Assembly: GCA_038056395.1 (NCBI GenBank)
Contig: JBBUFS010000004.1
Span: 884 to 64,883 of the forward strand
Direction: 5' to 3'
Length of the DNA: 64,000 nucleotides
Source of the DNA: Patescibacteria group bacterium
Lineage (GTDB): Bacteria; Patescibacteriota; Minisyncoccia; Phycocordibacterales; WO2-35-19
Part shown: positions 29,394 through 45,988 of the stretch, in pieces
How the letters are laid out: every line of letters starts with the position of its first letter
Numbering within the stretch: the stretch's first letter is position 1
Position numbers and translations under genes: made by a program
Notes under the pieces: generated by a model
Seen by the model: only the letters and a program-made list of their open reading frames with translations
Told to the model about the DNA's origin: nothing
The model's database searches: none

Positions 29394-30671
29394 ATGGAAA
29401 AACCGATTATAGAAATTAGAAATATAAGCAAAAAATATAATATCGCCCATCAGCGTGGTGGCTATGTGGCTTTGCGCGATGTTTTGATGAATGTGCTTAA
29501 ATCCCCCTTCTATTTTTTGAAATCAAAAGCCAAGCAAGTTGCCGGATTTGAAAAAAAGGAAGAATTCTGGGCCCTTAAAGATGTCAATTTTTCGGTTCAA
29601 AAAGGCGAAGTGGTGGGAATTATAGGGGCCAACGGCGCGGGCAAATCCACCCTGCTTAAAATCCTCTCTCAAATCACCCCCCCGACCGAGGGCGAGATTA
29701 TTTTACGAGGCAGAGTCGGCTCGCTTTTGGAAGTCGGCACGGGCTTTCATCCGGAATTGACCGGCCGGGAAAATATATTTTTGAATGGAGCTATTTTGGG
29801 CATGAAGAAAAAGGAGATAGCCCAAAAATTTGACGAGATTGTGGAGTTTGCCGGCATAGGAAAATTTTTGGACACACCAGTCAAATATTATTCAAGCGGT
29901 ATGTATGTACGACTGGCTTTTTCAGTAGCCGCTTATATGGAACCGGATATTTTGATAATTGATGAAGTTCTGGCCGTGGGCGACGCCGAGTTCCAAAAAA
30001 AATGTTTGGGTAAGATGGAGGAAATAACAAAAGAAGAAGGCAGAACTATTCTTTTTGTAAGCCATAATATGGAGGCCATAAGAAGAATGTGCAGCCACTG
30101 CATTCTTTTGGATAAGGGAAAAATCACTTTCAAAGGAAATACGGGAGATACTTTGTCGGCTTATGATAAAAGCGACACAAAACTTGGAATAAACAAAGGA
30201 GGAAACAGAAAAAATCAAAGCCGAAGAGGTTCGGGGACTTTGAGTTTTACTGATATAAAAATTTTGGATGATTTAAACAAAGAAAGAAACATTTTTAAGA
30301 CGGGAGAGGCCGTCAGATTCAAAATGTCTTATGTTGTTTGTGAAGAAATGCGGGGGCTTCATGCCAGCGTTTGTTTTTTTTCAAACAAAACCAGGGAGTT
30401 GCTCACTAGCATACGTTATGAAATAAAAAGCGGCGTCGTGGCAAAAAATGAAACCGGCACGGCAACTATAGAAGTAGAGCTGACGATTATAAGGCCGGGT
30501 GAATACTCATTGTATTTTTGGCTGGGTGACGAAGCGGCCACCAAACAAGGCACTCCAACAAACTACGATATTGTTGACGGCATAACCAAACCGCTTATTA
30601 TAGAAGCTAAAAATGAAGAAGAAAAAAAACTGACTGGTAGCTTCTCCTTGCCTTCAAAAATTATAAAATAG
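29394..30671 (+). CDS. ABC transporter ATP-binding protein, Wzt/TagH-like, with C-terminal extension (possible carbohydrate-binding domain)
   Basis: Walker A GANGAGKST, signature YSSGMYVRLAFSVA, Walker B ILIIDEVLAVGD; about 170-aa C-terminal beta-rich extension. Confidence 0.85.
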   Translation: MEKPIIEIRNISKKYNIAHQRGGYVALRDVLMNVLKSPFYFLKSKAKQVAGFEKKEEFWALKDVNFSVQKGEVVGIIGANGAGKSTLLKILSQITPPTEGEIILRGRVGSLLEVGTGFHPELTGRENIFLNGAILGMKKKEIAQKFDEIVEFAGIGKFLDTPVKYYSSGMYVRLAFSVAAYMEPDILIIDEVLAVGDAEFQKKCLGKMEEITKEEGRTILFVSHNMEAIRRMCSHCILLDKGKITFKGNTGDTLSAYDKSDTKLGINKGGNRKNQSRRGSGTLSFTDIKILDDLNKERNIFKTGEAVRFKMSYVVCEEMRGLHASVCFFSNKTRELLTSIRYEIKSGVVAKNETGTATIEVELTIIRPGEYSLYFWLGDEAATKQGTPTNYDIVDGITKPLIIEAKNEEEKKLTGSFSLPSKIIK

Positions 30672-31191
30672 ATTTTACCATCATAACGCTGTTTATATAT
30701 TTGCCGTTAAAAAGAAAGAGTTCTTTTCTAACATCTTCTATTGTAAAACCGTTTTTGGTAAATGCTTTGATTGAACCGGTGTTATTTTCATATGCCCCAG
30801 CTATAATTTTATGCAACTTTAATCTATTAAAAGAAAAATCAGACAAAAGACCAATGGCCTCACTGGCATAGCCATGACCCCAAGAATCTTTGTCGCCAAT
30901 CATAATTCCGATTTCAGCAAATTTATGATGTTTGTTTATAGGACCTAATTTTATATTGCCTATATGCTTATCAGAATCTTTACGAATAATAGCCAAAAAT
31001 ATATAACTGGAATCTTTCAAGACATTATTAATATATTCTCTTAAGTTTTTTGACGTATGTTTAGAAAACCTGCTCTCCAGATATTGGTTGACTTCCGGAT
31101 CATTAAGCCAACCGACATATTCTTTGGTGGCGTCGGAGATTTCAACCGGTCTTAAATAAATAAGGGTTCCCTCTAATTTTATTTTTTTCAT
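30661..31191 (-). CDS. GNAT family N-acetyltransferase (RimL-like; a PseH-like role is possible)
   Basis: 176 aa; ...IGNIKLGPINKHHKFAEIGIMIGDKDSWGHGYASEAIGLLSDFSFNRLKLHKIIAGAYENNTGSIKAFTKNGF is a typical GNAT core. Confidence 0.7.
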   Translation of the reverse strand: MKKIKLEGTLIYLRPVEISDATKEYVGWLNDPEVNQYLESRFSKHTSKNLREYINNVLKDSSYIFLAIIRKDSDKHIGNIKLGPINKHHKFAEIGIMIGDKDSWGHGYASEAIGLLSDFSFNRLKLHKIIAGAYENNTGSIKAFTKNGFTIEDVRKELFLFNGKYINSVMMVKSIL

Positions 31192-31222
31192 TCTTGTTAG
31201 ATTGGTTCGGCAAAAATAATAA

Positions 31223-32293
31223 TTAAAAATATACTGCCTCGGCCATATGGGCAGTTTGTTTGAAAAGGTCTTGCCGCCACGCCGGATTATTGTTGAAATA
31301 ATTGTCTTTCATGGCATGGGTCAATCTAGACAATGCCTCATCTCGAATAAAATATGGTATTGTTGCAAGTTCTTTTTTATCTATGGGGCAAATATCTTGG
31401 TATGCATTAAGAAAAATATTTTTAGCTTCCGCTGCCACTTTTGAATAGTCGGTTAGATTATTAAATATAATATATTGTCGCGCCATTCTGTGGAGAGCAA
31501 AAGCGAGAGAGCGTGTTTTTTCAAGATAATGCAATGAATCAAAATCAATAATTGCTGCTATTTTTTTGCCGTTAGCTAAAAGATTGTGGGGATGAAGGTC
31601 AAAATGAACAATGCCCCAAGCGGTACTGCGCGGTTTTTGTTTTATAACATTGCGAACATCTTTAAGAATAAAATCCTCTTTAACCAGAAGATCAGCATGA
31701 AACTGGTCCTTTGGATTATTTTTCTGCTGGTGGCGCGCCTCTTGAAATATCTTTTTCCATATAGAAAGATTATACGACCTTAATTCTCTGACTTTTTTTA
31801 GCAATGAAAGCTTTTTTCGCTGCTTGCCCGTTATAGGCAGACAAGCCAGGGCTTTATCCAATTTACCAATTTCCCTGCCAGCGCTTTCAATCTCTTGGCG
31901 CGTCCCCCGATAATGGTCGGCATTGAGAAATATAAAAAGCGCGTATGGGTTATTCTCATCTATAACAAATAATTGTTTGCTTTGGGACGGCACCAAATGT
32001 GGCACATTCACTCCTTTGATAGAAAGTTTTTCCATAAGTTTAAGAGTTTCCCCTATCGCCGCCTGATTTCTAACACCCATATAACGCCGAAGCAAATATG
32101 TGTTTTTGTTTGTCGTAATCTTAAAATTATTGCTGTTGATTTCCGCTTCATCAACTTGTTCAATAGTTAAAATATTTTGGGGTTCAATGCCATAGCAGGA
32201 ACCGGCAATGTTCTTCACATTTTCGGCCTCTTTTTGGCTGACAGGTCTATAATGTATCTTCCACTTGCTGTGATTGTTGGGCTGAAAAATCAT
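31223..32293 (-). CDS. Aminoglycoside-phosphotransferase (APH)/choline-kinase-fold kinase
   Basis: GIVHFDLHPHNLL ... IIDFDS (catalytic loop HxDxxxxN and DFD motif of the APH/ChoK family). Confidence 0.6.
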   Translation of the reverse strand: MIFQPNNHSKWKIHYRPVSQKEAENVKNIAGSCYGIEPQNILTIEQVDEAEINSNNFKITTNKNTYLLRRYMGVRNQAAIGETLKLMEKLSIKGVNVPHLVPSQSKQLFVIDENNPYALFIFLNADHYRGTRQEIESAGREIGKLDKALACLPITGKQRKKLSLLKKVRELRSYNLSIWKKIFQEARHQQKNNPKDQFHADLLVKEDFILKDVRNVIKQKPRSTAWGIVHFDLHPHNLLANGKKIAAIIDFDSLHYLEKTRSLAFALHRMARQYIIFNNLTDYSKVAAEAKNIFLNAYQDICPIDKKELATIPYFIRDEALSRLTHAMKDNYFNNNPAWRQDLFKQTAHMAEAVYF

Positions 32294-32389
32294 GCATTAA
32301 AATATACCATAGAACCCCAAAACAAACCAGCATTTAATTTATAAAGTGTCAATATATAACAAAAATTTCGTCTCGAGTAATATAAGGAC

Positions 32390-33013
32390 ATGGGCGTGAA
32401 AAATGCTGAAAAAATAAAAGCTGTTATTTTTGACTGGGCGGGAGTGTTTTGTTCTCCTGGTGAACTTTTTTCACATCCAGCCCTAGCGACTCAAACAGGC
32501 CTGAATGTTGACGAAATGGGTGAACAGACCGCATCTATCCAACACGCTTATTATACCGGCACGATAAACAGCAAAGAATTTTGGGAGCAATCTTCCAATC
32601 TTTTGGGTCCTGCAGGTTTGTCCGAAACAGAATTGCGCGACGCATATCTTGCTTCTTACAGAATCTATCCGGAAATGCTTGGGCTTGCTTTAAATCTCAA
32701 ACAGAAATATAAAACATTGCTTCTTTCTAATTTAACGGCTGAAATGACGGAAGATATTAAAAAAAAATATGGAGTAAAAAAATATTTTCATCATGCTATT
32801 TTTTCAAACGAAGTCGGCTTGATGAAACCGGACCCTAAAATTTTTGAACTTGCCGTTGAAAAAATTAATATTCCGATAAAAAACATTGTTTTTATTGACG
32901 ACTCGCAAACCAATATCAAAGTCGCTGAGCATCTCGGTTTCCATATAATATTGTTCAAAAATCCGACTCAATGCCGGCAAGAGCTGAGAGATTTGGGGGT
33001 AACTATAATTTAA
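32390..33013 (+). CDS. HAD-superfamily hydrolase (subfamily IA)
   Basis: AVIFDWAGVF (motif I DxD-like), LLSNLT, VFIDDSQTNIKVAEHLG (motif IV). Confidence 0.7.
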   Translation: MGVKNAEKIKAVIFDWAGVFCSPGELFSHPALATQTGLNVDEMGEQTASIQHAYYTGTINSKEFWEQSSNLLGPAGLSETELRDAYLASYRIYPEMLGLALNLKQKYKTLLLSNLTAEMTEDIKKKYGVKKYFHHAIFSNEVGLMKPDPKIFELAVEKINIPIKNIVFIDDSQTNIKVAEHLGFHIILFKNPTQCRQELRDLGVTII

Positions 33014-33016: not shown

Positions 33017-34309
33017 TTAAACCGGTTTATTGCGCGGTTTTATAACGGGACCCTCAAGCAAGGTTCCAACTTTTCCGTTTTTTAATGCGCTACTCATAAT
33101 CGCAAAAACTTTTTCCAATCGTCGCGATACTTCTGCGATGTGAGAGGTGGTGTGAGAATAATTCATAACATTGGAACAACTCGTCAAAATACCAGCTTTG
33201 GCTGTCTCTTGAATAAACAAACTTTTGAGAACGAGATCATCATTTCCGTCGTTGTCCTTGAAAACAAATACCGGATGAGGACCGATACCCACGGCTTTCG
33301 TCGGGATTTTATATTCATTGGCAAGGGCATTGTAATTTTTGATCAGCAGATTCCCGGTTTCCCACAATCTTTTTTGAATATTGTTTCGCTTCATAAAATC
33401 AAGGGTTGCCAACGCGGCCGCGATACTTGGCAGATAACCGGCATAGGTAAATGAAAAAAATATGTCACCAGCATTCAAAGTCGCCATAATTTCTCGCTTA
33501 CCGCCCAATACCGAGAGTGGTTCGCCGTTGGAAATCGCTTTTCCATAACAAACCAGATCCGGAATGACACCGAAATATTCCGCGGCGCCACCCATGGCCA
33601 AACGAAAACCAGTAACCAGCTCATCAAAAACCAGCACCGCTTTATGTTTGCTGGCTAGTATTTTTATTCCTTCAAGAAAACCGGGGTGTGGCAGAGCAGA
33701 ACTGACTGGCTCAAGAATAATCGCGGCTATTTGATTGGGATAATCGTTTAGAATTTTTTCAAGACTAGGCAAATCATTGTATTTAAACTCATGGCTTAAA
33801 TTCTTAACCGCCTCCGGAATACCTCTGTTGCGGAGAGGATTGGTGGCAATTGCCCAATCCGGCCAGCCGTGATAGCCGCACTTGGCAACATGGTCGCGCC
33901 CGGTGTAAGCTCGAGCCACTCTGATAGCGGCAGTAGTAACATCAGAACCATTGAGACCAAAACGCACCATCTCGATATAAGGCAGCAGGCCGACAATCTT
34001 TTCAGCCAAGACGACTTCAAGATCGCCTGGTATGGAAAAAATTGTCCCTTTTTGGCGTTGACGGAGAACCGATCGTTCAATAAGCGGATGTTGGTAACCC
34101 AAAATGATCGCTCCCAATGAGGAAGCGAGATCAATATATTTGTTACCATCAACATCCCAGACTTCGCAGCCTTTGCCTCTTATGATTGCGTAGGGCGACA
34201 CCCCTTCCACAAATTGATCAGGAGATTTGCTTAAGGTTTGGGAAGCCCGCGGAATCACTTTTTTTGCTCTTTCCAGTAATCTTTTTGAATTTAAGGTTCT
34301 TCTTTTCAT
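33017..34309 (-). CDS. Class III (GSA-aminomutase-like) PLP-dependent aminotransferase
   Basis: 430 aa; ...GSDVTTAAIRVARAYTGRDHVAKCGYHGWPDW... and general class-III aminotransferase architecture. Confidence 0.7.
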   Translation of the reverse strand: MKRRTLNSKRLLERAKKVIPRASQTLSKSPDQFVEGVSPYAIIRGKGCEVWDVDGNKYIDLASSLGAIILGYQHPLIERSVLRQRQKGTIFSIPGDLEVVLAEKIVGLLPYIEMVRFGLNGSDVTTAAIRVARAYTGRDHVAKCGYHGWPDWAIATNPLRNRGIPEAVKNLSHEFKYNDLPSLEKILNDYPNQIAAIILEPVSSALPHPGFLEGIKILASKHKAVLVFDELVTGFRLAMGGAAEYFGVIPDLVCYGKAISNGEPLSVLGGKREIMATLNAGDIFFSFTYAGYLPSIAAALATLDFMKRNNIQKRLWETGNLLIKNYNALANEYKIPTKAVGIGPHPVFVFKDNDGNDDLVLKSLFIQETAKAGILTSCSNVMNYSHTTSHIAEVSRRLEKVFAIMSSALKNGKVGTLLEGPVIKPRNKPV

Positions 34310-34336: not shown

Positions 34337-35104
34337 TTATTTTTTAAAATTAAAGCAATTTTTTTTCCAGCTACTAAATCCGTCATGCCGTCTATATTTT
34401 TTATTTATATCAATCAGGGAATCATTTTGTTTCAATACTTTCAAAATATCTTCTAAGACAAAATCTCTGGGCAAGAGTTTTAACAGATTGTTGATAAGTT
34501 TGATATCATCCTTATAATCAACCGTAAACCTAAATCTTGATATATCTTTCTCGTTGTTTAAGTTGGCTATTCTAAACCGCCGAGGATTGTCTCTGATATG
34601 GGCGGTAACATGTTCTCGCTCATGCGATTTTTTAGCTTTTTTCCACATGTTCTTTAAAATATTAAAGGAAAAGACTTCAACATCCAGACCATCCGGAAAG
34701 GTTGGTGGGATAACATTACTGGCATAATCAACTTTTTCCCGAAAAAAAATATTTATTACTTTATCAATAATCTGCGGATCGGTTAGAGGGCAGTCGGCGT
34801 TAATTCTGATGATCACAGAATAGTTGCGATAAAACAACGCGCATTGATAAAATCTGTCCAGAACATCATTTTCCGAACCGCGAAAACAATCAACGCCGAT
34901 TTTCCGGCATAATTTTTCCGTAACATCGTCTTCTCTTCTATCAGTAGTAGCGACAACAATTTTGCCTATTTTTTTTGCTTGACCAACTCTAATCAAAACA
35001 TTTTCAAGAATTGTTCGGCCCCCGGCTTTCATTAAAATCTTGCCGGGCAAGCGAGTAGAATTCATTCTGGCTTGAATAATGCAAATTGTTTTTATTTTTT
35101 CCAT
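34337..35104 (-). CDS. SpsF/PseF-type cytidylyltransferase (CMP-sugar synthetase family)
   Basis: ICIIQARMNSTRLPGKILMKAGGRTILENVLIRV is the acylneuraminate-cytidylyltransferase-family N-terminus. Confidence 0.65.
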   Translation of the reverse strand: MEKIKTICIIQARMNSTRLPGKILMKAGGRTILENVLIRVGQAKKIGKIVVATTDRREDDVTEKLCRKIGVDCFRGSENDVLDRFYQCALFYRNYSVIIRINADCPLTDPQIIDKVINIFFREKVDYASNVIPPTFPDGLDVEVFSFNILKNMWKKAKKSHEREHVTAHIRDNPRRFRIANLNNEKDISRFRFTVDYKDDIKLINNLLKLLPRDFVLEDILKVLKQNDSLIDINKKYRRHDGFSSWKKNCFNFKK

Positions 35105-36000
35105 AAGCTGGGAAATATTATGCTTTTTTCGACATCAACAAAATTTTCTTTCAATTCTTTTATGCAGTTATCGCAATCCTTATTCTTATCTGCTATATCT
35201 ATGTCTTCTTTTAGCTGATCTAGATCATCCACGCCAAAAACCGTATAATTTATATCTTTGTTTTTGCAGGAAAACAGAAGAGCCGCTTGTTGTCTAGACA
35301 GATTATATTTATTTATAATTTTATCAAGCTTTTTCAAATATGGCTTGGCAATTTCCAAATATGGAGGAATTTTCTCCTCTGACATAAAAAACAGACCCTG
35401 TAAAAAAGCGCTGCGCGCAAAAACTGTCACATTATTTTTTTGGGCAATTTCAAAAAAATTTGTTTTGTTTAATCTTTGGTCAAAAATGCTATACGGCACT
35501 TGTATATAATCAAATTTATTGAGTTCAACCGCATAGACAGCATCGTTTTCTTCATAAATAGAAACGCCTATGTTTTTGACTAATTTTTGTTTTTTAAGGT
35601 TTACCATAGCGTCAACCGTTTTATTATCATATATATATGCCGGAGTATGAAAAAGATAACCATCCACATAATTTCTATTTAATCTTTTTAATGATTCCTC
35701 CAGATTGTTAGCTATAATATCGAGAGCTTCTCCGTGAGATTCAGACATAATATTCGGTTTTAATTTAGTAATAATCTTTATTTCCGCGCTTAAATTTCTA
35801 GTTTTAATAAATTCCCCTAAAATTTCTTCCGCTTCGCCGTAATTATAGGCAGTATCAAAAATCCTTATGCCCTTTTGCCAAGCATAATCAAGCATGGCAA
35901 GAGATTTCTCTCTTGCCGGTTTTCCATTTGGATTGTTAATTCCGTAATTTAAACCAAATTGAACCGTGCCCAGTATTAATTTGTTTAATAAGCTATTCAT
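35092..36000 (-). CDS. Aldo/keto reductase
   Basis: LGTVQFGLNYGINN ... GIRIFDTAYNYGEAEEILG ... AKR fold motifs. Confidence 0.75.
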   Translation of the reverse strand: MNSLLNKLILGTVQFGLNYGINNPNGKPAREKSLAMLDYAWQKGIRIFDTAYNYGEAEEILGEFIKTRNLSAEIKIITKLKPNIMSESHGEALDIIANNLEESLKRLNRNYVDGYLFHTPAYIYDNKTVDAMVNLKKQKLVKNIGVSIYEENDAVYAVELNKFDYIQVPYSIFDQRLNKTNFFEIAQKNNVTVFARSAFLQGLFFMSEEKIPPYLEIAKPYLKKLDKIINKYNLSRQQAALLFSCKNKDINYTVFGVDDLDQLKEDIDIADKNKDCDNCIKELKENFVDVEKSIIFPSLWKK

Positions 36001-39723: not shown

Positions 39724-40742
39724 ATATTTGTTATTCTGCCTTGTTTTTTGAGTTTTGCGTACCGTAACTGCGGAACGATATGTTCTCCAAATAGACGCAT
39801 GATAAAACCGTCCTTATAATCCAGCGCCGGCCGTTTATTTTCCAGAAAATAATCTATTGCAGCCAAAGCTTCATTGAATCCCAGCATGGCCCTAAAAATT
39901 GTGGTGCTGGATATCCTGGCATTTATTTCAATAACGCAAGGTTGGTGATTTTTATCTCTTCGAAGCTGCACATTGCACGGACCGATTGCCCCAACGCTTT
40001 CGGCCGTTTTTTTTGCGACATCCGCCATATCTTTTTGGTGGTTGGCAATAGCATGCCAAGTCATGCCGAATTTAAGCTTTCTTAGCATGGTTATCGCCCC
40101 AAGCGCCCGCGAATCCTTTGTCAAAAATACACCCACCGTATATTCTTCATCTTTGCCATTGTCAATATATTCCTGAATTATCGGATTGGACACATTTGGC
40201 CACTTCTTATCCAGCTCCTTTTTATTTTTGATGATGTAAAAATCTTTTGAGCCGCTTCCGTGTCTCGGCTTCAAAACAAGCGGCCATCCATATTTTTTTA
40301 TGAGCTTATCGGCGCCGTTTTTTGTTGTGTAGGTTTCCGGCACTCTTATGTTATTTTTTGACAAAAATCGGTAAGTTGCTAATTTATCCTGATTGCAAAT
40401 ATCCAAAACTTTCTCGGGCTGAACCACAAAATAAGCCTTGGTGCTTGCTTTCAACCTTTCAACATTTTTAGCGATAACAATCTGCTCCGCCTCAAAGCAA
40501 CTGAATACTATATCAATTTTTTCCTTATTGCAGATGGTTATGATATCTTTGAGAAATTTCTTTTCATCTCCAAGCACCGGCTCAATAATATAGCCCTTGT
40601 CGGCAAGAAATAATCCGCAACTTTCCGCGTTTATGTCTGTGGCAATTATTCGCATTTTCCGACCAAACATTCTAAGCGACTTAATCACTCCCTGTCCGAT
40701 ATCCCCGCTACTCGCGGTAACCAAAATATTTATTTTTTTCAT
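39720..40742 (-). CDS. ATP-grasp domain ligase
   Basis: WPLVLKPRHGSGSKDFYIIKNKKEL ... PIIQEYI ... VIEINARISSTTIFRA (ATP-grasp motifs). Probable start MKKINILV at about 40742; the track ORF extends to 40814. Confidence 0.65.
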   Translation of the reverse strand: MKKINILVTASSGDIGQGVIKSLRMFGRKMRIIATDINAESCGLFLADKGYIIEPVLGDEKKFLKDIITICNKEKIDIVFSCFEAEQIVIAKNVERLKASTKAYFVVQPEKVLDICNQDKLATYRFLSKNNIRVPETYTTKNGADKLIKKYGWPLVLKPRHGSGSKDFYIIKNKKELDKKWPNVSNPIIQEYIDNGKDEEYTVGVFLTKDSRALGAITMLRKLKFGMTWHAIANHQKDMADVAKKTAESVGAIGPCNVQLRRDKNHQPCVIEINARISSTTIFRAMLGFNEALAAIDYFLENKRPALDYKDGFIMRLFGEHIVPQLRYAKLKKQGRITNI

Positions 40743-40746
40743 TAAA

Positions 40747-41802
40747 TTATTTCGCAATAAGCCGCCAAGACAGAGGCGTGCCGGACTTGATATCGATTTT
40801 AGCGCGCCGACCAATAACGCTATCTAAATATTTTGGAGACAAACCATAGCCAGGACGGATAGAACGAATGTTGCTCTTAGAAAAAATTTCTCCCTTTTTC
40901 ACATCCTTGACTACAAATAAAGATCGACGATACACACTATATTGCTTCTCTCGAGGAGTCAGTTTATAACACGGGCGACCAACGGCTTTTTCTACCTGAC
41001 GGATAGATTCTACGAGTTCTTTAAACTCTGCCGGTTCCAGAGAAAATCCGGCATCAGGACCACCTTCAGAACGTTTGAGTGTCAGATGCTTTTCAATAAT
41101 ACAGGCGCCCAAAGCCACCCCCGCGATTGAAGAGATGGCGCCGAGAGAATGGTCGGATAGTCCGGGAACTACCTTAAATTTTTTGGCCAAATCAGGTATG
41201 GTCGCCAAATTCATTTGTTCGGCTGTAGCCGGATAGGAAGTGACGCAATGCAATACTGCCACCGCCGGTGCGCCGTTTGCTCTTAAAGTTTTGACTGCCA
41301 GCTCAATTTCCTTTACTGAAGCCATGCCCCGCGAAATTATAACAGGTTTCTTTGTTTGGCCTATTTTTTTAAGCAACCCGATATCCGGAACTTCAAAAGA
41401 GGCCACTTTATAGAGAGACACTTTGAGCTTATTCAAGAAATCCACCGCTGTCTCATCAAAAGGGGTGGAAAAAAATACAAGACCCCTGTTCTCGGCATAT
41501 TTTTTAAGTTTTGCCTGCCATTCCCATGGCGTATAGGCCCATTTATATAAATCATAAAGGGTCTTTTTGTCCCAGAGATTGTCGGTCTTAACTTTAAACC
41601 ATTTTAGGTCGCTATCAATTGTCATCGTGTCTGGTGTGTAAGTTTGCAATTTGACAGCATCAGCCCCGGCTTTGGCCGCCGCATCTATGATTCTCAAAGC
41701 TTTTTTATAATCATGATTATGATTGCCCGACATTTCCGCCACGATAAAAACCGGTTTATTTCTGCCAATTATTCTCCGTCCTATTTTAAATTGACTAGAC
41801 AT
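40747..41802 (-). CDS. pseI: Nonulosonic acid synthase, pseudaminic acid synthase-like (NeuB/PseI family)
   Basis: FKIGRRIIGRNKPVFIVAEMSGNHNHDYKKALRIIDAAAKAGADAVKLQTYTPDTMT ... LWDKKTLYDLYKWAYTPWEW ... GLSDHSLG; close to C. jejuni PseI motif order. Confidence 0.8.
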   Translation of the reverse strand: MSSQFKIGRRIIGRNKPVFIVAEMSGNHNHDYKKALRIIDAAAKAGADAVKLQTYTPDTMTIDSDLKWFKVKTDNLWDKKTLYDLYKWAYTPWEWQAKLKKYAENRGLVFFSTPFDETAVDFLNKLKVSLYKVASFEVPDIGLLKKIGQTKKPVIISRGMASVKEIELAVKTLRANGAPAVAVLHCVTSYPATAEQMNLATIPDLAKKFKVVPGLSDHSLGAISSIAGVALGACIIEKHLTLKRSEGGPDAGFSLEPAEFKELVESIRQVEKAVGRPCYKLTPREKQYSVYRRSLFVVKDVKKGEIFSKSNIRSIRPGYGLSPKYLDSVIGRRAKIDIKSGTPLSWRLIAK

Positions 41803-42940
41803 AATTAAAAAATTTCTTAACGATTAAACACACATATAAAATACCCAATCTTGAAAGTTGCGGGTGAAGCGGTAAAGTAAGGCAGGACTCCTGGTATAAC
41901 TCTTCGTTTGGCAAGGCAAATTTTTTATAGCCATTATTTCTATAGTATGGATGCGAATAAACAGCCGGATAATGAATCGTATTCCCTATTCCAGCTTTTT
42001 TTAAATAAGCCATCAACCCACCTCGCCGATTTGAATCTTTCAAACGAATAACAAAAATATGCCAAGATGATAGGGCCTCGTGTTCAACGGGTAATATTAT
42101 ATCTTTTATTTCTTTTAATTTTTTTATATAAACGGCGGTTAATTTGCGTCTTTTTTTTACAAAATTATCCAGCCGCTTTAATTGGCTTACTCCTAAACCA
42201 GCAGCAATATCCGACAAGCGATAATTAAATCCTAACTCTATCACGCTATTAAATCCATTCTTGTCTTTCACAATACCATGAGAGCGAAAATATTTCAGTT
42301 TTTCATAATATTTAATATCATTAGTCAAAACAGCGCCCCCCTCTCCCGTGGTTATGTGTTTAACCGGATGAAAACTAAACACAGTCATATCGGCAAGTGT
42401 TCCCGTTTTCTTTCCTTTATATAAAGCGCCAAGAGAGTGACAAGCGTCTTCAATCACAATCAACTTATCCTTTTTGGCAATTTTTTTTATTGCATCCATA
42501 TTGGACGGATGTCCGGCAAAATCCACCGGCGCAATCGCCTTGGTTTTTTTTGTAATAAGAGACTCTATTTTATTTTCATCAATATTATATGTATCCAATC
42601 TAATATCACAAAAAACGGGTTTGGCTCCGGTCGCCAAAATCATATTTGATGTTGCCGCAAAAGTATTGGGAGTGGTAATAACTTCATCCCCCGTTTTTAG
42701 ACCGGCCGCCAAATACGCAATATGGAGTCCAGCAGTGCCACTGCTTACAGCCACCGCATATTTTGCTCCGCAATATTCTGCCAGCTTCTCTTCAAATTTT
42801 TTTACTTTAGGACCCTGAGTGAGCCAATCCGATTCTAACACTTTAACTACAGAAGATATATCTGCATTATTAACGCTTTGGCGACCATATGACGCTAAAC
42901 CAGTCCGGCTATTTTTCTTATGTCCTTTGTAGTGAGCCAT
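41795..42940 (-). CDS. pseC: DegT/DnrJ/EryC1 PLP aminotransferase, PseC-like (UDP-4-keto-6-deoxy-sugar 4-aminotransferase)
   Basis: YGRQSVNNADISSVVKVLESDWLTQGPKVKKFEEKLAEYCGAKYAVAVSSGTAGLHIA ... FSFHPVKHITTGEGG. Confidence 0.8.
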   Translation of the reverse strand: MAHYKGHKKNSRTGLASYGRQSVNNADISSVVKVLESDWLTQGPKVKKFEEKLAEYCGAKYAVAVSSGTAGLHIAYLAAGLKTGDEVITTPNTFAATSNMILATGAKPVFCDIRLDTYNIDENKIESLITKKTKAIAPVDFAGHPSNMDAIKKIAKKDKLIVIEDACHSLGALYKGKKTGTLADMTVFSFHPVKHITTGEGGAVLTNDIKYYEKLKYFRSHGIVKDKNGFNSVIELGFNYRLSDIAAGLGVSQLKRLDNFVKKRRKLTAVYIKKLKEIKDIILPVEHEALSSWHIFVIRLKDSNRRGGLMAYLKKAGIGNTIHYPAVYSHPYYRNNGYKKFALPNEELYQESCLTLPLHPQLSRLGILYVCLIVKKFFNYV

Positions 42941-43881
42941 TTTTTATTGAGATCGCTTGTGTAAAGAAAATCTTTGCCTAGCGGTTTTTTAAGTTTATAT
43001 TTTAATACATGCGCCGTGCTTGGTGTGTGAGGAATGATTACATAATAATCGCCTAAATCGTGAGTCCTAATAGCTTCCTCTTGGGTTATCAGAGTTTCAT
43101 GGATTTTCTCTCCCGGCCTCATCCCCACTACTTTAATTTTTTTATCCGGAGCTAGAGCTTTAAATAGATCGGAAATTTTCATTGAAGGAACCTTCGGCAC
43201 AAATATTTCACCCCCTACCATATTCTTGATGGCGTATGATACTAAATCAAAGCATTGATCCAATGTGATCCAAAAACGAGTCATGTCGTTGTCGGTAACA
43301 TGCAGCGGATCGTTATCTTTACGATTTAATATCGTGTCAATAACACTTCCCCTGCTGCCAATTACATTGCCATAACGAACAACGCTTAAACATGTATTAT
43401 TACCTTTTGAATAAACATTGCTTGATATAAAAAGCTTCTCCGCGCACATCTTGCTGGCCCCGTAAAGATTAACGGGACTTACCGCCTTATCGGTAGAGAT
43501 AAGAAGGATCTTCCCGACTTCCCTGTCTAGAGCGGCTGTTACAATATTTTGAGTGCCTAAAATATTTGTTTGAATCGCTTCAAATGGGTTGTATTCCAAA
43601 GCTGGCACCTGCTTTAATGCGGCGGCATGCACCACGATATCCACACCATCAAAAGCCATACGCAACCTTGATAAGTCTCTAATATCCCCCAAGAAAAAAC
43701 GCAATATATTATTATAAGCCGCCAATTCCTGTTGCATCTTAAATTGTTTTAATTCGTCCCGACTAAAAATAATAATCTTTTTGGGCTTGAAATTAGTAAG
43801 AAGAAACTTAATAAAACTCTGGCCAAAAGAGCCGGTGCCTCCGGTTATTAGAATGGTTTTGTTGTTATACATGGTATACAT
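42895..43881 (-). CDS. pseB: UDP-GlcNAc 4,6-dehydratase (inverting), PseB/FlaA1/CapD-short type
   Basis: ILITGGTGSFGQSFIKFLL...KKIIIFSRDELKQFKM ... DGVDIVVHAAALKQVP ... YGASKMCAEKL; near-identical motif layout to C. jejuni PseB. Confidence 0.85.
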   Translation of the reverse strand: MYTMYNNKTILITGGTGSFGQSFIKFLLTNFKPKKIIIFSRDELKQFKMQQELAAYNNILRFFLGDIRDLSRLRMAFDGVDIVVHAAALKQVPALEYNPFEAIQTNILGTQNIVTAALDREVGKILLISTDKAVSPVNLYGASKMCAEKLFISSNVYSKGNNTCLSVVRYGNVIGSRGSVIDTILNRKDNDPLHVTDNDMTRFWITLDQCFDLVSYAIKNMVGGEIFVPKVPSMKISDLFKALAPDKKIKVVGMRPGEKIHETLITQEEAIRTHDLGDYYVIIPHTPSTAHVLKYKLKKPLGKDFLYTSDLNKKWLTTKDIRKIAGLV

Positions 43882-43990
43882 ATAAACATTTTATTATTTA
43901 TTTTGCAACAAAAAACATATGCGTATCTGCCCGCGATATGGTATTGAGAAAGGCCTCGAGCCATGATAAAATGGCCAAATTAAAGATAAA

Positions 43991-45988
43991 ATGGACGAAA
44001 AAACCAAAAATATAAACGATCCAAACAATCCGGTGATCCTTTTTATTCCCGAGGCCGGAATATATCCTTTTATAAGAGGGCTTTCTGTTTTGGGTGATTC
44101 CATAGTAAAACAGGGCGGTAAAGTGTTTGTTACTTATGATCCGGGAATTATGCTGCGCTCCCCTATTATGGTAAAGCATAAAATGCCGGTGAACGCTTCG
44201 TTGGAACAAAGAGCTGAAATATGCAAAAAAAATACGGAGATTTTGAAAAAAGTTTTGTCAAAATATAAATTTTCACCAATAGATATTTCTGAATTGGTTG
44301 ATGAAAAGCTTATGCAAGAAATAGAAAGTTTGGTTGCCGATAAAAATAACGATTTGGAAAACATAATTTATAGAGGTTTTCCCGTTGGAAAAGTCGCTCA
44401 GTACGACTTTATGCTTGAAACCAAATTTCCATACTCTCCAATCCTTTCCAATGAACGTAAGGCTTTGTATTCGGCCTATATAAAAAACACGGCTCTGACC
44501 ATAGCCATAACTGACCGTATTTGCCAAAAACACAAGCCCTCTCTGCTTGTAACATTTAATGAATACGCCCAAAGTCAGGCTGTGAGATATAGCGCAGATA
44601 CTCACAACATATCGCGTATGGCCTTAACATATCCGGTGCATTTTAATATAGATGCATCAAGATTTCTAATTTGGAAATCCACATTTTCATTATTTTTTTA
44701 TCTTCATTGTCAAAAGTGGAACGACATAAAAGATATTCCCATAGTTCCGCAATATATAAAAGAATGTTGGGATGATGTTGTGTTTCGCCTTTTTGGCGCG
44801 GGGGGGTCGCATATATTTTCCACCAGAAAGGAAGGCGACCCGGCTAATGTCTTCAATAAATTAAAACTGGATCCAAAAAAGAAAACTGTTGTGGCCTATT
44901 CCAGCAGTCGCGATGAACGTCCAGGTTTGGACACCATAATGAAAGTGTGGGGGGAAGATTCGAAGGTTGTCGACGCTTTTCAAAATCAAACAGAATGGCT
45001 TTCGGTTTTGCGCGAATACGCCGCCAAACGGGATGATATTCAAATTGTGGTCCGCATTCATCCGCGAGAAGGCAAGAGGCAGTTTGGTTTTGATTCCCAA
45101 CATCTGAAACAGCTTAAAGAAAAATTCACCGAAAACGCTTCAAATTTTATTATTGTTTGGCCAGATGATCCTATTTCAAGTTATGACCTGGTGGAACTGG
45201 CTGATATTTGTTTGATAGCTTGGTCTTCTATGGGCCATGAAGCGACCAGACTGGGAGTGCCGGTGCTTTCGTATGCCAGCAATCTGACTTATGTGGATGA
45301 TGATTTTATGCAAGTCGCCACTACCCCGGAAGAATACTTGAAAAAATTGGATTATATTATTGATATGAAATATGCTTGGCGACACCTTGTTAAAGCAGTG
45401 CGTTTTTACCATTGGCGCACTTTTATTCCTTCGCTTGATTTGGGAGAAACTGTTCCTGTTGATTTTGGAGATGACACTATATGGCCGGAGGCTCCAGAGT
45501 CTATGGTTCCAGTAATAAACGATATTTTATCAGGCAAACAAGACCTTATTTCTTACAATATAAAAAAATGGCAAGATTCTCTGAATGATGATTCCCTAAA
45601 AGAAGAATCTGAGGCCATGCGAAAAGGAATACGCTATTTTTTGGATAAAATATTTTACCCGCCAGCTGCTCCTAAAAATAATTTCTTAACAAAATTATAT
45701 AAACGAGTTTTGTATAAATTGATAAGAATTTGGCATCGCCTATCCTGGAATAGAAAATATCCAACCAAGAAAAAAGAGTATGATTTTACCGACTACAAGC
45801 TTGAGTACTACGATAATAAGTCCCGCGCCGAAGAGTTTCGCCTAAGAACCGAGGGGGACAAAAATTTGCGTGTTATCATTGCCGATGGACTTTATGCCGT
45901 ATTGGCGCACAATGGAAAGTTATCGCGTCGCATGTCTCCCATGGTTATTAAATTAGCCAAAATGCACTATGAATCAAGAGAGTATTAA
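43991..45988 (+). CDS. Capsule-polysaccharide-biosynthesis (KpsS/KpsC/LpsZ, PF05159-like) family protein; candidate CMP-nonulosonate (Pse/Kdo-type) glycosyltransferase
   Basis: C-terminal region IQIVVRIHPREGKR...IIVWPDDPISSYDLVELADICLIAWSSMGHEATRLGVPVLSY matches the KpsS/KpsC conserved block (KpHP...lyeLl..ad.VvtinSt.G.EAl..gkPV). Confidence 0.5.
   Translation: MDEKTKNINDPNNPVILFIPEAGIYPFIRGLSVLGDSIVKQGGKVFVTYDPGIMLRSPIMVKHKMPVNASLEQRAEICKKNTEILKKVLSKYKFSPIDISELVDEKLMQEIESLVADKNNDLENIIYRGFPVGKVAQYDFMLETKFPYSPILSNERKALYSAYIKNTALTIAITDRICQKHKPSLLVTFNEYAQSQAVRYSADTHNISRMALTYPVHFNIDASRFLIWKSTFSLFFYLHCQKWNDIKDIPIVPQYIKECWDDVVFRLFGAGGSHIFSTRKEGDPANVFNKLKLDPKKKTVVAYSSSRDERPGLDTIMKVWGEDSKVVDAFQNQTEWLSVLREYAAKRDDIQIVVRIHPREGKRQFGFDSQHLKQLKEKFTENASNFIIVWPDDPISSYDLVELADICLIAWSSMGHEATRLGVPVLSYASNLTYVDDDFMQVATTPEEYLKKLDYIIDMKYAWRHLVKAVRFYHWRTFIPSLDLGETVPVDFGDDTIWPEAPESMVPVINDILSGKQDLISYNIKKWQDSLNDDSLKEESEAMRKGIRYFLDKIFYPPAAPKNNFLTKLYKRVLYKLIRIWHRLSWNRKYPTKKKEYDFTDYKLEYYDNKSRAEEFRLRTEGDKNLRVIIADGLYAVLAHNGKLSRRMSPMVIKLAKMHYESREY

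What the first reader, a model, noticed from the sequence alone, without database searches (positions are those of the whole stretch)
30661..45988. Pseudaminic-acid-type pathway with unusual tailoring set and a KpsS-like candidate transferase; no PseG
PseB (ILITGGTGSFG...IFSRDELKQ), PseC (YGRQSV...WLTQGP), PseI (FKIGRRIIGRNKPVFIVAEMSGNHN), an SpsF/PseF-type cytidylyltransferase and a GNAT are present; a PseG-type UDP-sugar hydrolase is not. Interleaved are a PIG-L deacetylase, a formyltransferase, an ATP-grasp ligase, a class-III aminotransferase, two HAD phosphatases and an aldo/keto reductase. This is consistent with N-deacetylation and re-acylation (for example N-formyl or aminoacyl) of the nonulosonate. 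The KpsS/KpsC-family gene is a candidate retaining CMP-nonulosonate transferase, by analogy to KpsS-like pseudaminyltransferases in Acinetobacter capsule loci.
Basis: partly seen in the sequence, partly recalled or inferred. Interest (0 to 1): 0.6.

Follow-up and report, generated by a model that had tools for sequence, protein, structure and literature searches.

The report
Pseudaminic-acid sugar locus in a CPR bacterium
A groundwater Patescibacteria genome carries a real pseudaminic-acid (bacterial sialic-acid-like sugar) pathway with extra tailoring genes and no PseG, next to a large uncharacterised enzyme that probably attaches the sugar but is not a KpsS/KpsC-family member.

Summary
The gene list is largely right. 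PseB, PseC and PseI each pass NCBI's equivalog cut-offs, so this is a Pse route, not a Leg route. No PseG occurs in the 64-kb window or in 10 kb beyond its right end. All named tailoring genes are present.

The GNAT is not PseH-grade. The 'formyltransferase' belongs to the 1ZGH family and appears to lack the catalytic Asn. The cytidylyltransferase is SpsF-type, not PseF-type.

The 'KpsS/KpsC-family' gene (43991-45988) matches no Capsule_synth model. It is a confidently modelled GT-B protein with invariant HP and SS motifs, from a large uncharacterised family (4802 clusters at 50% identity). Its nearest curated relative is the Tannerella forsythia Pse/Leg-transferase family (NF046086). Similarity to KpsC is remote and confined to the nucleotide-binding domain.

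NeuB-type genes lie within 10 kb in 23 of 47 related loci. A 75%-identical homologue sits beside a Leg/Neu-type cassette instead. It is therefore most likely a CMP-nonulosonate transferase; whether it retains or inverts is unknown.

The host is a Patescibacteria MAG, and the locus adjoins Wzm/Wzt and a Wzy_C protein. Verdict: a new variant of a known kind, of moderate interest.

The parts
42895..43881 (-). PseB, inverting UDP-GlcNAc 4,6-dehydratase. First gene of the pse operon, divergent from the 665-aa gene.
   Evidence: TIGR03589 442.7 bits (cut-off 407.75). LegB 63 bits, FnlA 256 bits, both below their cut-offs. Polysacc_synt_2 E 2.3e-94.
41795..42940 (-). PseC aminotransferase.
   Evidence: TIGR03588 436.8 bits (cut-off 423.5). 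LegC-family model 259.8 bits against 420.
40747..41802 (-). PseI pseudaminic acid synthase.
   Evidence: TIGR03586 470.9 bits (cut-off 340.25). NeuB model 324 bits against 399.65.
39720..40814 (-). ATP-grasp ligase in the pse operon. The true start is probably about 25 codons into the ORF.
   Evidence: NF009402 259.8 bits (cut-off 218). PDB 2PN1 E 3e-12. A 27%-identical ATP-grasp sits next to PseI in L004.
39016..39723 (-). HAD phosphatase, last gene of the pse operon.
   Evidence: Pfam Hydrolase and HAD_2.
38435..39004 (+). DUF218 protein on the opposite strand.
   Evidence: PF02698 E 3.2e-7.
37669..38340 (-). Formyltransferase-like protein of the 1ZGH family. Appears to lack the catalytic Asn.
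   Evidence: PDB 1ZGH E 1.4e-78; PseJ (6CI2) only E 3e-4. More than 7900 homologues at E<=1e-20.
36986..37744 (-). PIG-L/LmbE sugar N-deacetylase, overlapping the formyltransferase-like gene.
   Evidence: PF02585 E 4e-27. Diacetylchitobiose deacetylase E 4e-13. The same overlapping pair occurs in L051, L052 and L053 at 46-61% identity.
36084..36962 (+). SAM-dependent methyltransferase.
   Evidence: Methyltransf_23 E 1.1e-21. A 29%-identical homologue lies beside the class-III aminotransferase in L053.
35092..36000 (-). Aldo/keto reductase.
   Evidence: PF00248 E 2.3e-40. Occurs fused to CTP_transf_3 in L052 and in a Vibrio cluster (PMC7371886).
34337..35104 (-). SpsF-type cytidylyltransferase, the probable CMP-nonulosonate synthetase (PseF role).
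   Evidence: PF02348 E 1e-33. No PseF hit. PDB 6OEW E 2e-47. 40% identical to the cytidylyltransferase lying between PseC and PseG in L004. [quoted passage not shown]
33017..34309 (-). Class-III (GSA-aminomutase-like) aminotransferase.
   Evidence: PF00202 E 1.3e-46. NF004856 351.9 bits, below its cut-off of 486. PDB hits include GSA aminomutases and aminoglycoside C-6' aminotransferases. Occurs fused to CTP_transf_3 in L002.
32390..33013 (+). Second HAD phosphatase.
   Evidence: Pfam Hydrolase E 1.8e-17.
31223..32293 (-). APH/homoserine-kinase-like kinase.
   Evidence: PF01636 E 1.8e-15. Homoserine kinase models 54-62 bits, far below their cut-offs. PDB 2PPQ E 5.7e-6.
30661..31191 (-). GNAT N-acetyltransferase. 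A possible but unproven PseH substitute.
   Evidence: Acetyltransf_3 E 3.1e-26. PseH 44.4 bits against 93.1. SpeG and AAC(6') are the top PDB hits; C. jejuni PseH E 2.4e-5.
43882..43990 (.). 109-bp divergent intergenic region. DNA homology to the Leg/Neu-type relative L048 starts at 43963.
   Evidence: blastn of the window against L048 aligns 43963-45967 and 46002-50026 at 78-80%, with nothing upstream.
43991..45988 (+). 665-aa GT-B protein of an uncharacterised family.
   Evidence: AF2 pLDDT 90.8. GT-B fold hits. HP357-358, SS396-397 and TSSxDE304-309 are conserved in 240 sequences. NF046086 is hit by 21 of 37 members. Association with nonulosonate cassettes.
45969..46919 (+). GT2-like 316-aa protein, translationally coupled to the 665-aa gene.
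   Evidence: Glycos_transf_2 E 2.1e-5. It occurs in the same locus as the GT-B gene in 12 of 47 related loci, and downstream of it in L048-L050.
46929..50020 (+). Conserved right arm: methyltransferase, TIGR04325 methyltransferase and a B12-radical SAM enzyme.
   Evidence: The three are 80-88% identical in L048 and L049.
28566..30671 (+). Wzm (28566-29384) and Wzt with a C-terminal Wzt_C carbohydrate-binding domain (29394-30671), forming an ABC exporter abutting the cassette.
   Evidence: ABC2_membrane E 1.8e-16, ABC_tran E 8.5e-25, Wzt_C E 3.2e-13.
26294..28594 (-). Wzy_C (O-antigen-ligase/O-OTase type) membrane protein with TPR repeats.
   Evidence: PF04932 E 7.2e-20 plus TPR families.

Best explanation
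The region is a CMP-pseudaminic-acid-type nonulosonate biosynthesis cassette in a groundwater Patescibacteria MAG. It lies inside a larger ABC-transporter-dependent surface-glycan locus.

Shown by family models: PseB, PseC and PseI make the Pse backbone from UDP-GlcNAc.

Inferred from synteny and genetics elsewhere: the SpsF-type cytidylyltransferase activates the sugar with CTP.

Inferred, chemistry unknown: several modules tailor the N-acyl and possibly other substituents. These are the formyltransferase-like/PIG-L pair, the ATP-grasp plus HAD pair, the aldo/keto reductase with the class-III aminotransferase, the kinase with the GNAT, and a methyltransferase. These modules recur in Pse/NulO loci of other phyla.

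Inferred from motifs, distant homology and context: the divergently transcribed 665-aa GT-B protein binds the CMP-sugar through its HP and SS motifs and transfers the Pse derivative to the glycan. It may act as a chain-terminating cap, because Wzt carries a carbohydrate-binding domain and family members occur fused to methyltransferase and glycosyltransferase modules. A Wzy_C enzyme would then ligate the exported glycan.

The UDP-sugar hydrolase step (PseG) has no identifiable gene here.
For: - Pse core: three equivalog models pass their cut-offs.
- Host: the 665-aa protein and the formyltransferase-like protein are 100% identical to NCBI 'Patescibacteria group bacterium' proteins. The contigs come from Hainich groundwater.
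- Cytidylyltransferase: it is 40% identical to the cytidylyltransferase in a canonical pseB-pseC-CTP-pseG order in L004. SpsF is the activation step for Leg in B. subtilis (PMC7439481).
- GT-B protein, structure and motifs: the model has pLDDT 90.8 and a GT-B fold. R355, H357, P358, R359, S396 and S397 are at least 97% conserved in 240 sequences.
- GT-B protein, homology: its only curated relatives are NF046086 (21 of 37 members, best E 4.6e-10) and TIGR04396 (9 of 37). NF046086 is named after BFO_1060, the strain FDC 92A2 homologue of the genetically validated T. forsythia Pse and Leg transferases (PMC5420450).
- GT-B protein, context: a NeuB-family gene lies within 10 kb in 23 of 47 related loci, and in 7 of 8 close relatives that have adequate upstream sequence. 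The gene directly follows a cytidylyltransferase in L001 and L002.
- Cassette swap: L048 keeps the GT-B gene (75% amino-acid identity) and the downstream genes (75-88%), but carries a Leg/Neu-type cassette. The breakpoint lies 28 nt upstream of the start codon.
- Cap idea: Wzt_C is present. A Wzt homologue lies near the family in 8 of 47 loci. Family members occur fused to methyltransferase, Glyco_trans_1_2 and GT1 domains.
- Tailoring: the formyltransferase-like/PIG-L pair follows PseI/NeuB directly in L051 and L052 and follows PseC and WbqC in L053. CTP_transf_3 occurs fused to the class-III aminotransferase and to the aldo/keto reductase.
Against: - No biochemical data exist for any gene here.
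- PseG is missing and PseH is not recognisable. The pathway as annotated is incomplete unless these genes lie elsewhere or have been replaced.
- The GT-B protein falls far below the NF046086 cut-off (24.8 bits against 200).
- Its fold hits are generic: UDP-GlcNAc 2-epimerases, TagF and KpsC score alike.
- About half of the more distant family loci show no NeuB gene within 10 kb, including most Planctomycetes loci and L005.
- A 75%-identical enzyme sits beside a stereochemically different nonulosonate pathway, with no donor-specific block of divergence. This needs either relaxed donor specificity or a role other than nonulosonate transfer.
- The adjacent GT2-like gene is an alternative transferase.
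Confidence: 0.6

Rival explanations
1. One reading: the 665-aa protein is a KpsS/KpsC-family (Capsule_synth; GT107/GT118-like) retaining CMP-nonulosonate transferase that uses an Asp nucleophile in a double-displacement mechanism.
For: - KpsC structures (6MGD, 8FUX, 8FUW, 6MGB, 6MGC) give the highest target-normalised TM-scores (0.46-0.53) among the top 50 matches listed. KrkA GT140 (9YFX) is also hit.
- hhalign against 29 Capsule_synth proteins aligns the HP motifs (RIHPRE against VKEHPxQ) with E 1.6e-4.
- A nearly invariant D308-E309 sits after the first strand of the C-terminal Rossmann domain. The reference paper places the QxxxD nucleophile in that domain; that it occupies this same topological position is my inference.
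Against: - No Capsule_synth hit for the window protein at E<=1, and only 3 of 37 family members hit it.
- hhalign probability is only 51% and is limited to the nucleotide-binding domain. Against a single Capsule_synth sequence it is 2%.
- The PDB profile search does not find KpsC.
- The motif is T/S-S-S-x-D-E, not QxxxD.
- For the C-terminal domain modelled alone, epimerases and TagF score better than KpsC.
Confidence: 0.12
2. The 665-aa protein is a TagB/TagF-like phosphotransferase. It would transfer a phospho-alcohol from a CDP-activated donor, made by the kinase and the SpsF-type cytidylyltransferase, onto the glycan. It would not transfer the nonulosonate.
For: - TagF structures are among the best hits for the C-terminal domain (E about 1e-4, TMq about 0.52).
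- The T. forsythia relatives were reported to carry a TagB-like domain (PMC5420450).
- The window has a kinase, a cytidylyltransferase, an aminotransferase and phosphatases that could make and process a CDP-amino-alcohol.
Against: - Close relatives (L001, L048, L050) sit beside plain NeuC-NeuB-NeuA cassettes. No homologue of the window's kinase was found in any related locus.
- No Glyphos_transf Pfam hit.
- The T. forsythia relatives are genetically tied to loss of the nonulosonate itself.
Confidence: 0.1
3. The 665-aa GT-B protein is the missing UDP-sugar hydrolase, a functional analogue of PseG or NeuC. That would explain why PseG is absent.
For: - The best Foldseek E-values are to UDP-GlcNAc 2-epimerases, including hydrolysing NeuC (5XVS, 5ZLR).
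- It is the only window protein with even a faint (non-significant) score on a PseG HMM.
- Epimerase_2 is weakly hit by 7 of 37 family members.
Against: - Family members coexist with a bona fide PseG (L002, L004, L014, L037) or NeuC (L001, L003, L007, L011, L013, L048, L050) in the same locus.
- Fusions to glycosyltransferase and methyltransferase modules point to polymer-level chemistry.
- The protein is about twice the size of PseG.
Confidence: 0.05
4. The adjacent GT2-like 316-aa protein (45969-46919) is the nonulosonate transferase. The 665-aa protein would have another role in the glycan, for example adding the acceptor sugar or regulating chain length.
For: - The two genes are translationally coupled.
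- They co-occur in 12 of 47 loci, mostly close relatives with nonulosonate cassettes.
Against: - The GT2-like gene is absent from distant Pse loci that keep the 665-aa family next to the cytidylyltransferase (L002, L004).
- It has no sialyltransferase-type motifs or family hits.
- The 665-aa protein carries the HP/SS signature.
Confidence: 0.08

Closest known systems
Tannerella forsythia Pse/Leg-derivative transferases Tanf_01245 / TFUB4_00887 / BFO_1060 (NCBIfam NF046086)
   Same: - This is the only curated family that the 665-aa family hits with significant E-values (21 of 37 members, best 4.6e-10; window protein 1.1e-5 over residues 177-429).
- Both are GT-B type with an HP motif and an acidic D/E-D/E-G-like motif.
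- Both are encoded directly next to the CMP-nonulosonate biosynthesis locus.
- In both, near-identical enzymes are paired with either a Pse or a Leg cassette in related strains.
   Different: - 665 aa against about 445 aa, with an extra helical and beta-rich C-terminal extension.
- The score is far below the family cut-off (24.8 against 200 bits).
- The acidic motif is D-E-R-x-G rather than a contiguous D/E-D/E-G.
- No N-terminal donor-specific block of divergence is seen.
Retaining ulosonic-acid transferases: KpsC (GT107), WbbB (GT99), KpsS1 Pse transferase (GT118), KrkA (GT140)
   Same: [quoted passage not shown]
- KpsC and KrkA are among the Foldseek hits.
- The HP regions align in profile-profile comparison.
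- WbbB caps an ABC-transporter-exported glycan, which is the role proposed here.
   Different: - No Capsule_synth membership.
- The QxxxD motif is not present as such.
- Similarity is restricted to the nucleotide-binding domain.
- Mechanism and stereochemistry are unknown.
Canonical CMP-Pse pathway PseB-PseC-PseH-PseG-PseI-PseF (Campylobacter jejuni / Helicobacter pylori)
   Same: PseB, PseC and PseI are equivalog-grade members.
   Different: - No PseG.
- The GNAT is not PseH-grade.
- The cytidylyltransferase is SpsF-type, not TIGR03584.
- Nine extra genes are interleaved.
Accessory sets in other Pse loci: Legionella pneumophila Sg6/Sg12 O-antigen cluster, the Vibrio B9-25K2 nab cluster, and the Desulfosporosinus lacus flagellin island (L052)
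   Same: - The class-III aminotransferase, SpsF-type cytidylyltransferase, aldo/keto reductase and GNAT sit next to PseB/PseC/NeuB, with Wzm/Wzt in Legionella (PMC3694923).
- An SpsF::aldo/keto-reductase fusion is proposed to replace NeuA (PMC7371886).
- PseI is followed by the formyltransferase-like and PIG-L genes in L052.
   Different: - Those loci keep PseG (HMM E 3.4e-54 in L052).
- They use Capsule_synth or Maf proteins as candidate transferases, not the 665-aa family.
PseJ, the N-formyltransferase of a Pse pathway (PDB 6CI2 and related entries)
   Same: Both carry a Formyl_trans_N core in a Pse context, which gives a precedent for an N-formyl Pse.
   Different: - Only E 3e-4 to PseJ, against E 1.4e-78 to the uncharacterised 1ZGH protein.
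- The catalytic Asn appears to be replaced (V-F-H).
- It is always paired with a PIG-L deacetylase.
C. jejuni Cj1438 ATP-dependent amidoligase plus Cj1435 HAD phosphatase (glucuronamide decoration)
   Same: An ATP-dependent amide-forming ligase (shown for Cj1438) next to a HAD phosphatase in a glycan locus. The window also has an aminotransferase and a kinase that could supply a phosphorylated amine.
   Different: No detectable sequence relationship was tested or shown. The substrate could equally be an amino group of the nonulosonate, as in aminoacylation.

Membership tests
KpsS/KpsC (Pfam Capsule_synth PF05159; GT107/GT118) | Significant match to the Capsule_synth / KpsS / KpsC family models | tested here: not met
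   No hit at E<=1 for the window protein. No NCBIfam KpsS or KpsC hit. Only 3 of 37 family members hit it, best E 0.0017.
KpsS/KpsC and related retaining transferases (GT99/107/118/140) | [quoted passage not shown] | tested here: met
   H357-P358 are 99-100% conserved in 240 sequences. The motif aligns with the Capsule_synth HP motif in hhalign.
KpsS/KpsC and related retaining transferases (GT99/107/118/140) | QxxxD motif (carboxylate-binding Gln plus nucleophilic Asp), as defined in PMC12887879 | tested here: not met
   The conserved motif at the start of the C-terminal domain is T/S304-S-S-x-D308-E309, with no Gln at D-4. Whether D308 is structurally equivalent to the nucleophile could not be tested.
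KpsS/KpsC and related retaining transferases (GT99/107/118/140) | Modified GT-B fold closest to KpsC, WbbB or KrkA | tested here: inconclusive
KpsS/KpsC and related retaining transferases (GT99/107/118/140) | Retention of anomeric configuration | not testable with these tools
   Requires product NMR.
BFO_1060 family nonulosonate transferases (NF046086) | Score above the curated cut-off (200 bits) | tested here: not met
   24.8 bits, E 1.1e-5. 21 of 37 family members hit it at E<=0.01, best 4.6e-10. This makes it a distant relative, not a member.
BFO_1060 family nonulosonate transferases (NF046086) | Encoded beside the CMP-nonulosonate biosynthesis genes, with Pse or Leg cassettes exchangeable between relatives | tested here: met
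   The window gene is 109 bp from pseB. L048 carries a Leg/Neu-type cassette at the same place. NeuB lies within 10 kb in 23 of 47 loci.
BFO_1060 family nonulosonate transferases (NF046086) | Loss of the terminal nonulosonate on gene deletion | not testable with these tools
   This is genetics in T. forsythia only (PMC5420450).
CMP-pseudaminic acid pathway | PseB, PseC and PseI equivalogs | tested here: met
   442.7 against 407.75; 436.8 against 423.5; 470.9 against 340.25 bits.
CMP-pseudaminic acid pathway | PseG UDP-sugar hydrolase | tested here: not met
   Absent from the window and from 10 kb beyond its right end. The rest of the genome was not available.
CMP-pseudaminic acid pathway | PseH N-acetyltransferase | tested here: inconclusive
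   The GNAT scores 44.4 bits against 93.1. C. jejuni PseH gives E 2.4e-5, but SpeG and AAC(6') score better.
CMP-pseudaminic acid pathway | PseF cytidylyltransferase (TIGR03584) | tested here: not met
   No hit at E<=1e-5. An SpsF-type enzyme is present instead, and its role is inferred from synteny and from PMC7439481.
Sugar N-formyltransferases (Formyl_trans_N; PseJ, ArnA, VioF) | Pfam domains above threshold | tested here: met
   Formyl_trans_N 33.1 bits against 26.1; Formyl_trans_C_2 65.6 bits against 27.
Sugar N-formyltransferases (Formyl_trans_N; PseJ, ArnA, VioF) | Catalytic Asn-His-Asp triad (N-x-H...D) | tested here: not met
   The sequence reads C-V-V-F-H...L-D-T-G (alignment). By comparison with E. 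coli Fmt C-I-N-V-H, recalled from my own knowledge and not aligned with a tool, Asn is replaced by Val while His and Asp are kept.
ABC-transporter-dependent glycan assembly with terminal-cap recognition | Wzm, plus Wzt carrying a C-terminal carbohydrate-binding domain | tested here: met
   ABC2_membrane, ABC_tran and Wzt_C (E 3.2e-13) at 28566-30671.
ABC-transporter-dependent glycan assembly with terminal-cap recognition | A dedicated chain-terminating enzyme | not testable with these tools
   This role is only inferred for the 665-aa protein, from fusions and from Wzt co-occurrence in 8 of 47 loci.

The most novel reading that the evidence does not exclude
The 665-aa protein founds a widespread glycosyltransferase family, not yet characterised biochemically, that transfers CMP-activated nonulosonic acids (Pse, Leg or Neu types). 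At least 4800 clusters at 50% identity occur across Patescibacteria, Bdellovibrionota, Spirochaetes, Desulfovibrionaceae, Planctomycetes, Cyanobacteria and Proteobacteria. In CPR bacteria it would cap an ABC-transporter-exported surface glycan. In addition, CPR Pse pathways would run without a PseG homologue, using a non-orthologous UDP-sugar hydrolase.
Probability: 0.4. Interest if true: 0.65.

Novelty: new variant of a known kind. Interest (0 to 1): 0.5.

Why it matters
Few nonulosonic-acid transferases are known: Maf, KpsS1 (GT118) and the T. forsythia enzymes. This scarcity limits glyco-engineering and the prediction of surface glycans from genomes. A large, motif-defined GT-B family that tracks Pse, Leg and Neu cassettes across many phyla would be a useful new handle.

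The two full-text searches I ran on nonulosonic or pseudaminic acids in Patescibacteria/CPR returned one paper, which mentions each term once, and none. A sialic-acid-like cap on an ultra-small, probably episymbiotic cell could bear on host attachment or phage evasion.

PseG-less Pse loci in three CPR contigs point to a missing enzyme. The ubiquitous formyltransferase-like/PIG-L pair (more than 7900 homologues) is an uncharacterised tailoring step that is open to biochemistry.

Tried and rejected
- The full-length Foldseek TM-scores are low, which I attribute to hinge and insertion differences. A second model of the C-terminal domain alone did not separate KpsC from TagF or the epimerases.
- A profile search of the PDB sequences found nothing real.
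- hhalign of the family against a single Capsule_synth sequence gave 2% probability. Only the profile-profile version gave a marginal signal.
- The metagenome scan with the single protein returned only 3 loci.
- A donor-specific divergent segment, as in the T. forsythia enzymes, was looked for between Pse-linked and Leg/Neu-linked homologues and not found.
- The idea that the formyltransferase-like/PIG-L pair replaces PseG or PseH was rejected. In Desulfosporosinus the pair coexists with PseG and a PseH-like GNAT.
- A gene family shared by the three PseG-less CPR loci that could replace PseG was looked for and not found.
- Literature searches for the PIG-L/formyltransferase/ATP-grasp module in nonulosonate clusters found no functional study.

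Full report
**What is there**

The span 30661-45988 holds 16 ORFs. The first 15 lie in four minus-strand mini-operons, separated by three single plus-strand genes:
- pseB-pseC-pseI-ATP-grasp-HAD (43881 to 39016)
- DUF218 (+)
- formyltransferase-like/PIG-L (38340 to 36986, overlapping)
- SAM methyltransferase (+)
- aldo/keto reductase, CTP_transf_3, class-III aminotransferase (36000 to 33017)
- HAD (+)
- APH-type kinase, GNAT (32293 to 30661)

The sixteenth gene, of 665 aa (43991-45988, +), is transcribed divergently from pseB across a 109-bp spacer.

The window comes from a Patescibacteria MAG. The 665-aa and formyltransferase-like proteins are 100% identical to NCBI 'Patescibacteria group bacterium' proteins on a 92.9-kb contig. 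Sibling contigs come from Hainich groundwater.

**The Pse core is real**

- PseB, PseC and PseI each exceed the curated equivalog cut-offs (442.7 against 407.75; 436.8 against 423.5; 470.9 against 340.25 bits).
- The competing LegB, LegC-family and NeuB models fall well below theirs.

**What is missing or weaker than stated**

- No PseG-like protein exists in any ORF of 150 aa or more in the window by Pfam or NCBIfam.
- tblastn with two PseG proteins found none. A PseG HMM built from four loci found none either. There is none in the 10 kb beyond the right end.
- The GNAT is SpeG/AAC(6')-like, and PseH scores only 44 bits against 93.
- The cytidylyltransferase is SpsF-type with no PseF hit. It is 40% identical to the enzyme in a canonical pseB-pseC-CTP-pseG order in L004.
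- SpsF is genetically the activation step for legionaminic acid in B. subtilis (PMC7439481). A Vibrio SpsF::aldo/keto-reductase fusion has been proposed to replace NeuA (PMC7371886). I therefore assign it the PseF role by inference.

**The tailoring genes**

- The formyltransferase-like protein is 1ZGH-like (E 1.4e-78) and only marginally PseJ-like. Its motif reads V-F-H where Fmt-type enzymes have N-x-H. That comparison rests on my own knowledge of E. coli Fmt, so its chemistry is uncertain.
- It has more than 7900 homologues at E<=1e-20.
- It is followed by an overlapping PIG-L gene in Acetivibrio (L051), in a Desulfosporosinus flagellin island (L052) and in a CPR Jacksonbacteria locus (L053). 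The pair lies directly downstream of PseI/NeuB in L051 and L052. In L053 it follows PseC and WbqC, and NeuB lies about 7 kb away.
- L052 also has PseG (HMM E 3.4e-54) and a PseH-like GNAT. The pair is therefore an add-on, not a PseG or PseH substitute.
- CTP_transf_3 occurs fused to the class-III aminotransferase (L002) and to the aldo/keto reductase (L052). The same trio is listed in the L. pneumophila Sg6/Sg12 O-antigen cluster (PMC3694923). The set is recurrent but uncharacterised.
- 'Deacetylate and re-acylate' is plausible. So is amidation by the ATP-grasp with a phosphorylated amine followed by HAD dephosphorylation, on the Cj1438/Cj1435 model (PMC11800397). An oxidise-then-transaminate step by the aldo/keto reductase and the aminotransferase is also possible. 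None of these could be tested here.

**The 'KpsS-like' gene: sequence evidence**

- It has no Pfam family at E<=0.001. At E<=1 the only hit is DUF354 (E 0.12).
- It has no solved-structure relative by sequence.
- It belongs to a large family with 4802 clusters at E<=1e-3 in the 50%-identity library.
- The family spans Patescibacteria, Bdellovibrionales, Holosporaceae, Treponema, Desulfovibrionaceae, Planctomycetes, Cyanobacteria, Polyangia and Proteobacteria.
- In 240 sequences the conserved signature is G133, K145, Y192, D262, T/S304-S-S-x-D308-E309, F330, W336, R355-x-H357-P358-R359-E360, W390-P391, S396-S397-Y398-D399, E417, R420, G422 and R471.
- From my own knowledge, an HP motif followed about 40 residues later by an SS pair is the CMP-phosphate-binding arrangement of GT-B sialyltransferases such as PmST1.

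**The 'KpsS-like' gene: structure evidence**

- The AF2 model is confident (pLDDT 90.8) and has a GT-B fold.
- Foldseek hits UDP-GlcNAc 2-epimerases, KpsC (best TM-scores, 0.46-0.53) and KrkA.
- For the C-terminal domain alone, epimerases, TagF and KpsC score alike.

**The 'KpsS-like' gene: family tests**

- Capsule_synth is hit by 3 of 37 members.
- hhalign against 29 Capsule_synth proteins gives 51% probability, E 1.6e-4, over the HP-containing domain only.
- The QxxxD motif that defines the retaining Kdo-transferase group (PMC12887879) is absent as such.
- By contrast, NCBIfam NF046086 'BFO_1060 family glycosyltransferase' is hit by 21 of 37 members (best E 4.6e-10; window protein 1.1e-5). 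TIGR04396 is hit by 9 of 37.
- BFO_1060 is the strain FDC 92A2 homologue of Tanf_01245 and TFUB4_00887. Deletion of either removes the terminal Pse or Leg derivative from the T. forsythia O-glycan (PMC5420450).
- The window protein is thus a distant relative of validated nonulosonate transferases, not a KpsS/KpsC member.

**Context evidence**

- A NeuB-family gene lies within 10 kb in 23 of 47 related loci. Among relatives of at least 38% identity with adequate upstream sequence, the figure is 7 of 8.
- The cassettes differ in type: Neu-type (L001), Leg-type (L003) and Pse-type (L002, L004, L008).
- The most telling case is L048/L049 from the same aquifer. The GT-B gene (75% amino-acid identity) and the four downstream genes (75-88%) are conserved at 78-80% DNA identity from 28 nt upstream of the start codon. 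Upstream, the Pse cassette is replaced by a PglF-like dehydratase, an aminotransferase, NeuC, NeuB and NeuA.
- This mirrors the Pse/Leg strain dimorphism of T. forsythia. However, no donor-specific block of divergence is visible, which is a caveat.

**System-level reading (inferred)**

- The cassette abuts Wzm and a Wzt with a Wzt_C carbohydrate-binding domain, and a Wzy_C/TPR protein.
- Rhamnose-pathway genes, many glycosyltransferases, methyltransferases and B12-radical SAM enzymes follow.
- Family members occur fused to methyltransferase and glycosyltransferase modules. A Wzt homologue lies near the family in 8 of 47 loci.
- This fits an ABC-transporter-dependent glycan whose non-reducing end is capped by the Pse derivative, as β-Kdo caps the WbbB product. 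The Wzy_C enzyme would then ligate the glycan to a protein or lipid.

**Open point**

Three CPR Pse-type loci (the window, L008 and L053) lack PseG within 9-10 kb. CPR Leg/Neu-type loci keep NeuC, and non-CPR Pse loci keep PseG. Either PseG is encoded elsewhere or a non-homologous hydrolase is used. No shared candidate emerged.

**Verdict**

It is wrong on the KpsS/KpsC family assignment, and 'retaining' has no support. This is a new variant of a known kind of locus. Its most interesting element is an uncharacterised but very widespread candidate nonulosonate-transferase family, here in a CPR bacterium.

Noticed in passing
window 287-11314 (-): A giant 3675-aa ORF with no Pfam family on record. 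Its GC content (44-48%) is well above the rest of the window (31-41%). It may be a surface protein.
   Followed up: no
window 12498-13151 (+): An IS200-like Y1 transposase in a 31-32% GC stretch, between the giant ORF and housekeeping genes (gatB, secA).
   Followed up: no
window 43963-50026 vs L048 9970-16704: Cassette swap. A sibling Hainich CPR contig keeps the 665-aa gene and four downstream genes at 78-80% DNA identity, but has a Leg/Neu-type nonulosonate cassette upstream instead of the Pse cassette. The breakpoint is 28 nt before the start codon.
   Followed up: yes
window 37669-38340 (-) and 36986-37744 (-); L051, L052, L053: A formyltransferase-like protein (1ZGH family, apparently lacking the catalytic Asn) and a PIG-L deacetylase form a highly conserved overlapping gene pair. 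It lies directly downstream of PseI/NeuB in two Firmicutes loci and within a Pse-type cassette in a CPR locus. The formyltransferase-like protein has more than 7900 homologues. One homologue (P0402) is fused to a GNAT.
   Followed up: partly
L002 8136-10004; L052 1-1507: The SpsF-type cytidylyltransferase occurs fused to a class-III aminotransferase (Polyangia) and to an aldo/keto reductase (Desulfosporosinus). In the window the three are adjacent, separate genes.
   Followed up: partly
window 48467-50020 (+), 52412-53911 (-); L046 2494-4671: B12-binding radical SAM enzymes and at least seven SAM methyltransferases lie inside the glycan locus. One sibling-contig gene fuses GT2 to a B12-radical SAM domain. 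This suggests unusual (C-)methylation of the glycan.
   Followed up: no
window 26294-28594 (-): A Wzy_C (O-antigen ligase/O-OTase type) protein with C-terminal TPR repeats lies next to Wzm/Wzt, in a phylum not expected to make LPS. It may be a protein O-oligosaccharyltransferase or a polymer ligase.
   Followed up: no
L008 3446-4507 and 4492-5583: A related CPR Pse-type locus has two NeuB-family paralogues side by side, plus WbuX/HisH/WbuZ acetamidino genes, and no PseG.
   Followed up: partly
window 51653-52228 (-): A NUDIX hydrolase lies in the glycan locus. On chemical grounds only, it could act with a HAD phosphatase as a UDP-sugar hydrolase replacing PseG.
   Followed up: no
L005 6502-7941: A 479-aa Capsule_synth protein lies 2 kb from a 53%-identical homologue of the 665-aa protein, in a CPR locus with no NeuB within 10 kb. 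The two families therefore coexist and are not interchangeable.
   Followed up: partly
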